Positions 24,769 to 26,457 of a stretch of 64,000 nt of DNA are shown here, in pieces. Numbering within the stretch: the first letter of the stretch is position 1; every line of letters begins with the position of its first letter. Made by a program: the position numbers. The DNA is from Escherichia coli. GTDB taxonomy: Bacteria; Pseudomonadota; Gammaproteobacteria; Enterobacterales; Enterobacteriaceae. Location of the stretch: assembly GCF_051903065.1 (NCBI RefSeq), contig NZ_CP178438.1. One strand, written 5' to 3'.

Positions 24769-26457
24769 TTAAACAAAAAAACGAAGCAAGCATACGCCTG
24801 ATGGCGGTCCAAAAAAAAGAGTCATCTTGCCTAAGAGTATTGGCAGGATGGTGAGATTGAGCGACAATCGAGTTACACCGTCGCTTAAAGTGACGGCATA
24901 ATAATAAAAAAATGAAATTCCTCTTTGACGGGCCAATAGCGATATTGGCCATTTTTTTAGCGCAACATTTGCGGTAAATTCCCTTCTCCATACAGGTGTA
25001 GTGCACCGACCGCGACCACATATCGCCCCGGCGGCATGGCGCGTAATTTATCCCGCCAGGCGAGATTTCGCTGATGCATCAGCACATCGTACAGCGACTG
25101 ACTGAACGTATTGGGCAGCGTTATATCATTATTTTGCGGCGGTGCATTCAGCCACCAGCTCATCATTTGTTGCAGCAACCGTGCGTTGGTATGCCAGTGG
25201 GTCAGCGTATCGTCCAGCAGCGCCAGTCCTTTGTCAGGGAGCTGGAGCAACATGGCAATCTGGTTTTCAGCCCCTTCCAGTTCAATCACGGGTTTATGTT
25301 GTTGCTTCGCCGCCTGCAATAGCTGGTAATCGATACCGTATTCTGCCCGCAACCCCAGTTTTTGCGCCTGCGTCGCCTGAAGAACCATCGCGATTTGCCA
25401 CAGCGGTTGGGTAGAAAAGAGTGAGGGAGAAATGCCCATCTCCTGGCTAATGTGCTGCAGATTTTGTAATTGCTCCTCGCTAATACGCTCTTCCAGCGCC
25501 TCGCAGGCAGGCAAATTAGCAAAAGGCGTATCGCTGGTGGAAACATCCGCCTCGACGATCAGCGCATCGGCGTTTTTGAGCTTTTTGAGCAAACGGGCGG
25601 GCAGGGGAGCCATATCGTGGCTACCCATATGAATACTGCCAATCAGATGAAAATGGCGATTGCCGGGGAGGGTGATATCGATGGCAGGCCAGGAGTAATG
25701 ATTACCGCGCAGCGCGGCCCAAAGCGTTTTTACCCGGTACAACAGATCCATACGACCTCCCTTTGTGAAATATCATGCTAGCGCGCGGGGAGGGATGGCG
25801 CAAATGGAGTTGGGGACTTGTTTAATGTGTTTGTATGATTCAGTATGTTCTTGTATCGCTATTCACAGGGAAGCAACAGTTAAAAACTATGAAACAGGCA
25901 ACAAGAAAACCGACGACACCCGGAGATATTCTTCTCTATGAATATCTGGAACCGCTCGCTTTGAAAATCAATGAGTTAGCAGAGTTTCTGCATGTTCATC
26001 GTAATAGCGTCAGTACACTGATCAATAATAATCGTAAACTCACCACTGAAATGGCATTCCGTCTGGCGAAAGTTTTTGATACCACAGTCGATTTTTGGCT
26101 AAACCTCCAGGCGGCAGTTGATCTTTGGGAAGTTGAAAACAACATGCGCACCCAGGAAGAATTGGGACGGATTGAAACAGTGGCTGAATATTTGGCACGC
26201 CGTGAAGAGCGTGCAAAAAAGGTCGCGTAAGGCCAAAACATCGCTTCATCTCGTAGGCCGGATAAGGCGTTCACGCCGCATCCGGCATCCGAGCACCATT
26301 GCCTGATGCGACGCTTACGCGTCTTATCAGGCCTACAAACCTGTGCCTGAACCGTAGGCCGGATAAGGCGTTCACGCCGCATCCGGCATCCGAGCACCAT
26401 TGCCTGATGCGACGCTTACGCGTCTTATCAGGCCTACAAACCTGTGCCTGAACCGTA

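What the first reader, a model, noticed from the sequence alone, without database searches (positions are those of the whole stretch)
24875..24960. ChiX small RNA is present and its terminator overlaps the ybaP stop codon
The 84-nt sequence matches ChiX as I recall it, and its terminal T-run shares nucleotides with the convergent ybaP stop codon, a compact convergent arrangement.
Basis: established knowledge. Interest (0 to 1): 0.3.

Follow-up and report, generated by a model that had tools for sequence, protein, structure and literature searches.

The report
Known ChiX sRNA abutting ybaP stop
This is the ordinary, well-studied E. coli small regulatory RNA ChiX in its usual place, and its last two bases really do double as part of the stop codon of the oppositely oriented gene ybaP, exactly as in the reference K-12 genome.

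Summary
Both halves of the finding are confirmed, and both are already known. Rfam places family RF00368 (sroB, the older name of ChiX/MicM/RybC) at window 24875-24958 (+) with 82.1 bits against a gathering score of 44, over the full model. The 84 nt, the promoter and the junction with ybaP are identical to E. coli K-12 MG1655. K-12 annotates chiX at 507204-507287 (+) and ybaP at 507286-508080 (-), the same 2-nt overlap. In the window the ChiX T-run is 24952-24958 and the ybaP TAA occupies 24957-24959 on the minus strand, so bases 24957-24958 are shared. Published Term-seq puts a very strong RNA 3' end on exactly that base. The window's ChiX carries the 12-nt perfect complements to the chiP ribosome-binding site and to the chbB-chbC decoy. 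The one addition from this work is that the overlap is old. Among 118 Enterobacterales species loci, YbaP's TAA shares exactly 2 nt with the ChiX T-run in 86, although the YbaP C-terminal tail differs in sequence and length. The hairpin is not a two-way terminator. I found no good evidence for functional coupling between the two genes. Interest is low.

The parts
24840..24868 (+). ChiX promoter-like site: -35 TTGGCA (24840-24845), 17-nt spacer, -10 GACAAT (24863-24868); transcript starts at A 24875
   Evidence: Consensus scan, 9 of 12 matches. The scan alone is no better than chance (1 found, 0.9 expected). The sequence is identical to K-12, where chiX is annotated to start at 507204, equivalent to window 24875.
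24875..24958 (+). ChiX (SroB/MicM/RybC) small RNA, 84 nt
   Evidence: Rfam RF00368, 82.1 bits, full length. 100% identical to K-12 chiX. Present in 5422 of 5426 complete E. coli genomes.
24878..24896 (+). 5' stem-loop of ChiX (nt 4-22, 8 bp)
   Evidence: RNAfold MFE structure; whole RNA -24.1 kcal/mol, z = -3.9. A hairpin of at least 5 bp is predicted at this position in 106 of 106 unique homologues despite very different stem sequences.
24900..24911 (+). A-rich single-stranded linker with four consecutive A-R-N triplets (AAU AAU AAA AAA), the type of motif bound by the Hfq distal face
   Evidence: Read directly from the sequence; unpaired in the Rfam consensus. [quoted passage not shown] Assigning the triplets to the distal face is inference.
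24919..24932 (+). Seed (target-pairing) region: nt 45-56 pair with chiP, nt 47-58 pair with the chbB-chbC spacer
   Evidence: 12-nt perfect Watson-Crick complement to CGTCAAAGAGGA just upstream of the chiP ATG, and to CCCGTCAAAGAG in the chbB-chbC spacer of K-12. Both target stretches are 100% identical in strain E2865, which matches window 24700-25100 at 100%.
24931..24958 (+). Rho-independent terminator: 8-bp stem GGCCAATA/TATTGGCC (24931-24950), then A, then T7 (24952-24958)
   Evidence: Terminator scan. Term-seq 3' end at K-12 507287, equivalent to window 24958. 39 sequence variants across species all fold, with compensatory A-T to G-C changes.
24957..24958 (.). The two base pairs shared by ChiX (last two U) and the ybaP stop codon (the two A of TAA)
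   Evidence: The same exact 2-nt sharing occurs in 86 of 118 species loci.
24957..25751 (-). ybaP, TraB/PrgY/GumN-family protein, 264 aa; stop codon TAA at 24959-24957
   Evidence: ORF list. Pfam PF01963, 150.8 bits. Annotated ybaP in K-12 and in strain E2865.
24274..24753 (-). ybaK, Cys-tRNA(Pro)/Cys-tRNA(Cys) deacylase; gene upstream of ChiX and divergent from it
   Evidence: ORF list. Pfam PF04073, 81 bits. Annotation. A YbaK homologue lies in this position in 98 of 101 species loci with enough flank.

Best explanation
Window 24875-24958 (+) is the chiX gene of E. coli. It encodes an abundant, constitutively made, Hfq-dependent trans-acting small RNA.

Shown by others and cited here: ChiX pairs through its single-stranded seed with the ribosome-binding region of the chitoporin mRNA chiP. 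This blocks translation and promotes Rho-dependent termination within chiPQ. When chitosugars induce the chb operon, the chbB-chbC spacer acts as a decoy that pairs with the same seed and causes ChiX decay, which relieves chiP repression. ChiZ, a fragment of the chiP leader, is a second sponge.

Shown here: the window's copy has every sequence part this mechanism needs. These are the promoter, the 5' hairpin, the A-R-N linker, the 14-nt seed with both 12-nt perfect complements, and a terminator hairpin followed by a U7 tail.

The overlap: the template for the last two U of the tail is also the AA of the TAA stop of the convergent ybaP gene.

Inferred: this overlap is a passive, inherited packing arrangement. 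The T-run is held in place by selection on ChiX termination and Hfq binding, and together with the A that follows it, it gives YbaP a fixed 'backstop' stop codon. The overlap is not a regulatory device.
For: Identity: Rfam RF00368 at 82.1 bits, full model; 84 of 84 identity with annotated K-12 chiX, with the same flanking genes; present in 5422 of 5426 E. coli genomes.

Structure: fold z-score -3.9. Both hairpins are kept in 106 of 106 unique homologues, with many different 5' stems and 39 terminator variants.

Pairing: 12-nt perfect complements to the chiP Shine-Dalgarno region and to the chbB-chbC spacer. These target stretches are present in 5424 and 5404 of 5426 E. coli genomes.

Literature: ChiX-chiP pairing proven by compensatory mutations, Rho involvement, and the chbBC and ChiZ sponges (PMC7815308). 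Class II Hfq binding and constitutive expression (bioRxiv 10.1101/2021.08.13.456236). In vivo chimeras chbC.chbB.IGT:::chiX (2117) and chiX:::chiZ (1594) (PMC10954441 supplement).

3' end: Term-seq maps it at 507287 (+), with scores of 445279 and 552306 in the two entries retrieved.

Passive overlap: the exact 2-nt overlap occurs in 86 of 118 species loci, with 45 different YbaP C-terminal tails of differing length all ending at the same TAA. Where the A after the T-run is lost, the ORF simply runs on 17 or 87 nt into ChiX. In 19 species the genes are 3-230 nt apart, and ChiX still has its seed, hairpins and T-run there.
Against: Nothing contradicts the identification.

Limits: expression, Hfq binding and target repression were not measured for this strain. 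Targets were taken from K-12 and from a strain identical to the window only over 24700-25100, because chiP and chb lie outside the window. The promoter scan alone is not above chance. The cross-species sample required an exact seed match, was capped at 120 rows and is phylogenetically non-independent, so 86 of 118 shows inheritance, not selection. The 'passive' reading of the overlap is therefore an inference.
Confidence: 0.96

Rival explanations
1. The overlap is functional. Either convergent ybaP transcription and translation interfere with ChiX synthesis, or a ybaP transcript reading through the stop yields an RNA fully complementary to ChiX that acts as a cis-antisense sponge.
For: On the minus strand the ChiX hairpin is followed by CGTCAAAGAGG, with no T-run, so ybaP transcripts should run antisense across chiX. 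A RIL-seq table lists Hfq-bound chimeras for 'ybaP.EST3UTR' at 507215-507289 on the minus strand, with ArcZ and SdsR as partners. The exact 2-nt overlap is widespread.
Against: The minus-strand RIL-seq fragments (about 9.8 thousand) are about 0.2% of the roughly 5.3 million ChiX plus-strand fragments in the same table, which is the level expected from strand-assignment noise. The authors themselves treated them as ChiX. Term-seq lists no minus-strand 3' end between 507000 and 507499. 19 species keep an apparently intact ChiX with ybaP 3-230 nt away, and two Proteus species have ChiX without ybaP nearby. ChiX is very abundant while ybaP gave no detectable 3' end, so any antisense RNA would be greatly outnumbered.
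Confidence: 0.05
2. The ChiX terminator is a bidirectional intrinsic terminator that also ends the ybaP mRNA.
For: Convergent genes often share a two-way terminator, and the hairpin lies directly after the ybaP stop codon.
Against: The scan reports this hairpin as a terminator on the plus strand only. On the minus strand it is followed by CGTCAAAGAGGAA, with no T-run. No minus-strand 3' end appears here in curated Term-seq data, although ybaP may simply be too weakly expressed. The nearest minus-strand terminator-like site is 24800..24787, about 157 nt past the stop.
Confidence: 0.04
3. The Rfam match is a decayed or non-functional copy, or a chance resemblance.
For: None found.
Against: E 1.8e-10 with a full-length match. 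84 of 84 identity to the experimentally studied K-12 gene, with identical promoter and flanks. No matches in shuffles. It is the single copy in this window, and genomes that carry it have one copy each.
Confidence: 0.005

Closest known systems
ChiX (synonyms MicM, SroB, RybC; Rfam RF00368; K-12 gene b4585, 507204-507287)
   Same: Everything tested: sequence (84 of 84), length, promoter region, flanking genes ybaK and ybaP, 5' hairpin, seed, terminator, and the 2-nt overlap with the ybaP stop.
   Different: Nothing in the RNA. The only difference from K-12 in window 24754-24990 is one synonymous-position base inside ybaP. PGAP-annotated genomes such as NZ_AP018808.1 do not annotate the sRNA at all.
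Other Class II Hfq-dependent sRNAs (MgrR, CyaR, McaS)
   Same: [quoted passage not shown]
   Different: Different seeds and regulons. ChiX is made constitutively and is controlled mainly by decoy or sponge RNAs (chbBC spacer, ChiZ) rather than at its promoter.
Bidirectional intrinsic terminators shared by convergent genes
   Same: A terminator hairpin sits exactly at the junction of two convergent genes.
   Different: Only the plus-strand side has a T-run. On the minus strand the hairpin is followed by CGTCAAAGAGG, so it does not meet the definition.

Membership tests
Rfam RF00368 sroB / ChiX | Covariance-model score at or above the curated gathering score (44 bits) over the full model | tested here: met
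   82.1 bits, model positions 1-83 of 83, E 1.8e-10 over the whole window.
Rfam RF00368 sroB / ChiX | Located in the ybaK-ybaP intergenic region, divergent from ybaK and convergent with ybaP | tested here: met
   ybaK 24274-24753 (-), ChiX 24875-24958 (+), ybaP 24957-25751 (-). Same layout as K-12 and as stated in PMC3384567.
Rfam RF00368 sroB / ChiX | Single-stranded seed complementary to the chiP (ybfM) ribosome-binding region | tested here: met
   ChiX nt 45-56 (window 24919-24930) is a perfect complement of CGTCAAAGAGGA, 7-18 nt upstream of the K-12 chiP ATG.
Rfam RF00368 sroB / ChiX | Same seed complementary to the chbB-chbC intergenic decoy | tested here: met
   ChiX nt 47-58 is a perfect complement of CCCGTCAAAGAG in the K-12 chbB-chbC spacer. 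In vivo chimeras are reported.
Rfam RF00368 sroB / ChiX | 5' stem-loop and Rho-independent terminator with a U-tail, conserved in structure | tested here: met
   Both are kept in 106 of 106 unique homologues, with compensatory changes.
Rfam RF00368 sroB / ChiX | Own sigma-70 promoter giving a primary transcript that starts at the annotated +1 | tested here: inconclusive
   TTGGCA-17-GACAAT lies 6 nt upstream of 24875, but the scan finds 1 site against 0.9 expected by chance. Support comes from identity with K-12, where chiX is annotated from 507204.
Rfam RF00368 sroB / ChiX | Transcribed, bound and stabilised by Hfq, and represses chiP in this strain | not testable with these tools
   Known for K-12 and Salmonella from the literature. 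No expression data exist for the organism of the window.
Bidirectional intrinsic terminator | Hairpin flanked by an A-run on the 5' side and a T-run on the 3' side, so that each strand reads hairpin followed by U-tract | tested here: not met
   The 5' flank on the plus strand is CCTCTTTGACG, so the minus strand reads CGTCAAAGAGG after the hairpin. The scan calls this terminator on the plus strand only.

The most novel reading that the evidence does not exclude
The exact 2-nt sharing between the ChiX U-tail and the ybaP stop codon, kept in most Enterobacterales despite variable YbaP C-termini, is maintained because the two genes are coupled. For example, ybaP read-through RNA could act as a perfectly complementary anti-ChiX sponge, or ribosomes or RNA polymerase finishing ybaP could modulate ChiX termination.
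Probability: 0.05. Interest if true: 0.4.

Novelty: already known. Interest (0 to 1): 0.1.

Why it matters
It matters little beyond correct annotation. ChiX is one of the best-characterised enterobacterial sRNAs, and the overlap with ybaP is already in the K-12 reference annotation and in Term-seq tables.

Two small practical points follow. First, PGAP-annotated E. coli genomes such as the one identical to this window do not annotate chiX at all, so a scan that recovers it is filling a real annotation gap. Second, anyone editing the end of ybaP (tagging or deleting it) will damage the ChiX terminator tail, and anyone deleting chiX through its last base removes the ybaP stop codon.

The cross-species result is a tidy example of a terminator fixing the end of a neighbouring ORF, but it is not surprising.

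Tried and rejected
1. RNA.duplexfold of whole ChiX against the target leaders gave long, implausible duplexes only modestly better than shuffles (z about -2.7), because it ignores intramolecular structure. I relied instead on the 12-nt perfect complements in the region known to be single-stranded.

2. My first cross-species pass searched for YbaP stops only at or after the T-run and wrongly reported 'no YbaP' for Phytobacter- and Kosakonia-like loci. Widening the search showed that the stop had been lost and the ORF extends into ChiX.

3. I followed the 'ybaP.EST3UTR' minus-strand RIL-seq entries as a possible anti-ChiX RNA. I rejected it as probable strand noise, since these fragments are about 0.2% of the ChiX signal.

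4. I considered a bidirectional terminator and rejected it on sequence grounds.

5. The first attempt to read target loci inside the script failed because the files were not yet copied. I repeated it with the sequences pasted in.

6. I did not build a formal alignment-based covariation count. The 5' stems differ too much for reliable ungapped alignment, so I folded each homologue separately.

Full report
**Observation**

Reading window 24500-25300 and scanning the whole 64-kb window against Rfam 15 gives a full-length hit to RF00368 'sroB' at 24875-24958 on the plus strand. The score is 82.1 bits against a gathering score of 44, with E 1.8e-10. A permissive rescan of 24700-25100 finds nothing else there. 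SroB, RybC, MicM and ChiX are names for one RNA lying between ybaK and ybaP (table in PMC3384567). The 84-nt string occurs once in the window and never in shuffles.

**The overlap**

The ORF list gives a 264-aa minus-strand ORF at 24957..25751. Pfam assigns it to TraB/PrgY/GumN (PF01963, 150.8 bits), and RefSeq calls it ybaP. Its TAA stop occupies 24959-24957. The ChiX terminator is the stem GGCCAATA/TATTGGCC at 24931-24950, then A, then seven T at 24952-24958. Bases 24957-24958 therefore belong both to the ChiX U-tail and to the stop codon.

**Comparison with K-12**

MG1655 annotates chiX at 507204..507287 (+) and ybaP at 507286..508080 (-), the same 2-nt overlap. Window 24754-24990 differs from K-12 at a single base inside ybaP. 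The promoter region, the whole sRNA and the junction are identical. The 84 nt are present in 5422 of 5426 complete E. coli genomes, at 99% identity or more in 5011 of them. The window's 401 nt around ChiX are 100% identical to several EHEC-type strains, whose PGAP annotation lists ybaK and ybaP but no chiX.

**Experimental 3' end**

Term-seq in K-12 lists a very strong 3' end at 507287 (+), classified 'primary: chiX; antisense: ybaP' (PMC7815308 supplementary file 1). That base corresponds to window 24958, so the overlap applies to the real RNA and is not just an annotation convention. The same study lists a Rho-termination region at 507468 (+), equivalent to window 25139 and antisense inside ybaP (supplementary file 2). 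This suggests that the fraction of transcripts escaping the ChiX terminator is stopped by Rho about 180 nt further on. That link is my inference.

**Anatomy and mechanism**

- Promoter-like site: TTGGCA-17-GACAAT ends 6 nt before the first base. By itself this is no better than chance.
- Fold: the RNA forms a 5' hairpin (nt 4-22) and the terminator hairpin, with a z-score of -3.9.
- Linker: between the hairpins lies an A-rich stretch with four consecutive A-R-N triplets (24900-24911).
- Seed: nt 45-56 are a perfect 12-nt complement of CGTCAAAGAGGA over the chiP Shine-Dalgarno sequence. nt 47-58 are a perfect complement of CCCGTCAAAGAG in the chbB-chbC spacer of K-12.
- Targets: both target stretches occur in nearly all E. 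coli genomes, and at 100% identity in strain E2865, which matches the window at this locus.

The literature supplies the functional proof:

- ChiX-chiP pairing was shown by compensatory mutations.
- ChiX binding increases Rho-dependent termination in chiP.
- The chbBC spacer and the chiP-leader fragment ChiZ sponge ChiX and promote its decay (PMC7815308).
- RIL-seq records abundant chbC.chbB.IGT:::chiX and chiX:::chiZ chimeras (PMC10954441 supplement).

The mechanism is thus shown in model strains and inferred for this window from complete sequence identity.

**Is the overlap special?**

I scanned one genome per species (GTDB collection) for the seed plus the start of the terminator stem, AAATTCCTCTTTGACNGGCC. 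One is a chance hit without a terminator (a 'Lindowbacteria' MAG, L062), and one is truncated (L027). For the other 118 I located the T-run and the convergent YbaP homologue by BLASTP:

| Arrangement of the YbaP stop relative to the ChiX T-run | Loci |
|---|---|
| TAA shares exactly 2 nt with the T-run | 86 |
| TGA shares 1 nt (Pantoea) | 4 |
| Stop lost; ORF runs 17 nt into the terminator (Phytobacter/Kosakonia-like) | 4 |
| Stop lost; ORF runs 87 nt across all of ChiX (Phytobacter massiliensis, L028) | 1 |
| Gap of 3-230 nt | 19 |
| Neither ybaP nor ybaK nearby (Proteus) | 2 |
| Locus too short to tell | 2 |

The 2-nt class includes Escherichia, Salmonella, Citrobacter, Enterobacter, Klebsiella, Kluyvera, Lelliottia, Cedecea, Serratia, and several Yersinia and Rahnella. 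The gapped class is mainly Pantoea, Erwinia, Buttiauxella, Rouxiella and Hafnia.

YbaK is the upstream neighbour in 98 of 101 loci with enough flank. Within the 2-nt class there are 45 different YbaP C-terminal tails, of different lengths after the conserved GNLPxxL motif, and all end at the T-run's TAA. Across 106 unique ChiX homologues both hairpins are retained, with many different 5' stems and 39 terminator variants that include compensatory A-T to G-C changes.

My reading is that the T-run is fixed by ChiX function, and that the T-run plus the following A provides a stable backstop stop codon for YbaP. The arrangement looks ancestral and passively inherited. Species with a gap, or without ybaP, still have an apparently intact ChiX, which argues against obligatory coupling. 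Two caveats apply. The sample required an exact seed match, and it is not phylogenetically independent, so it cannot demonstrate selection.

**Rivals**

- Bidirectional terminator. On the minus strand the hairpin is followed by CGTCAAAGAGG, with no T-run. The scan calls it on the plus strand only, and Term-seq lists no minus-strand end nearby. This rival is not supported.
- Antisense or interference coupling. A RIL-seq table lists 'ybaP.EST3UTR' at 507215-507289 on the minus strand as a partner of ArcZ and SdsR. These roughly 9.8 thousand fragments are about 0.2% of the roughly 5.3 million ChiX plus-strand fragments in the same data. The authors treated them as ChiX, and strand noise is the simpler explanation.
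- Chance match or decayed copy. This is excluded.

**Verdict**

Observation and interpretation are both correct, and both are already in the reference annotation and published datasets. The feature is ordinary. The only increment from this work is the documentation that the 2-nt overlap is widespread in Enterobacterales. Novelty: already known. Interest: 0.1.

Noticed in passing
window 24875-24958, compared with NZ_AP018808.1 (locus L002): PGAP-annotated E. coli genomes whose sequence is identical to the window at this locus list ybaK and ybaP but no chiX or ncRNA feature, although the sRNA sequence is present in 5422 of 5426 genomes. This is an annotation gap, not a biological absence.
   Followed up: partly
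window 25139 (equivalent to K-12 507468, + strand): Published Rho-termination region antisense inside ybaP, about 180 nt downstream of the ChiX terminator (PMC7815308 supplementary file 2). It probably stops read-through from ChiX; that link is my inference.
   Followed up: partly
window 24800..24787 (- strand): Terminator-like site (5-bp stem CAGGC/GCTTG, then CTTCGTTTTT) between the ChiX promoter and the ybaK start codon. It could end ybaP read-through transcripts after they cross chiX in antisense. The stem is weak and this is unverified.
   Followed up: no
K-12 507215-507289, - strand (equivalent to window 24886-24960): A RIL-seq supplement lists Hfq-bound chimeras of a minus-strand 'ybaP.EST3UTR' with ArcZ and SdsR (PMC10954441). 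These are about 0.2% of the ChiX plus-strand signal, so probably strand noise, but an anti-ChiX RNA is not formally excluded.
   Followed up: yes
L028 (Phytobacter massiliensis); L043, L050, L068, L096 (Kosakonia/Phytobacter-like): The A after the ChiX T-run is G in these loci, so the YbaP stop is lost. The ORF reads on 17 nt to a TAA in the terminator, giving the tail ...QKNGQ*. In L028 it reads 87 nt across the entire ChiX gene.
   Followed up: partly
L067, L093 (Proteus faecis, Proteus cibi): ChiX-like seed, terminator and T-run are present, but no YbaP or YbaK homologue is nearby, so the sRNA sits in a different genomic context in Proteus.
   Followed up: no
L062 (MAG labelled Candidatus Lindowbacteria): The 19-base search pattern matched here, but no hairpin or T-run follows. 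About 2 chance hits were expected for this pattern in this collection, so I treated it as chance.
   Followed up: partly
window 11134-11198 (+): DnaX programmed -1 ribosomal frameshift element, Rfam RF00382, 96.8 bits, perfect match to the consensus.
   Followed up: no
window 19121-19198, 26256-26333, 26357-26434: Three Rfam naRNA4 (RF02564) hits of the REP/BIME-like repeat type. Two are an identical tandem pair 101 nt apart, just downstream of ybaQ, and both of those also score on the minus strand.
   Followed up: no
window 25835-26230 (+): The ybaQ ORF (labelled HigA-family antitoxin by PGAP, DNA-binding regulator in K-12) is 131 aa from the first ATG, whereas the K-12 annotated gene is 342 nt (113 aa). 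The real start is probably an internal codon. No partner toxin gene is annotated beside it.
   Followed up: no
E. coli genome collection: Two of the 5422 ChiX matches lie on records labelled as plasmids, and 4 of 5426 genomes have no match. These are likely mislabelled replicons and deletions.
   Followed up: no
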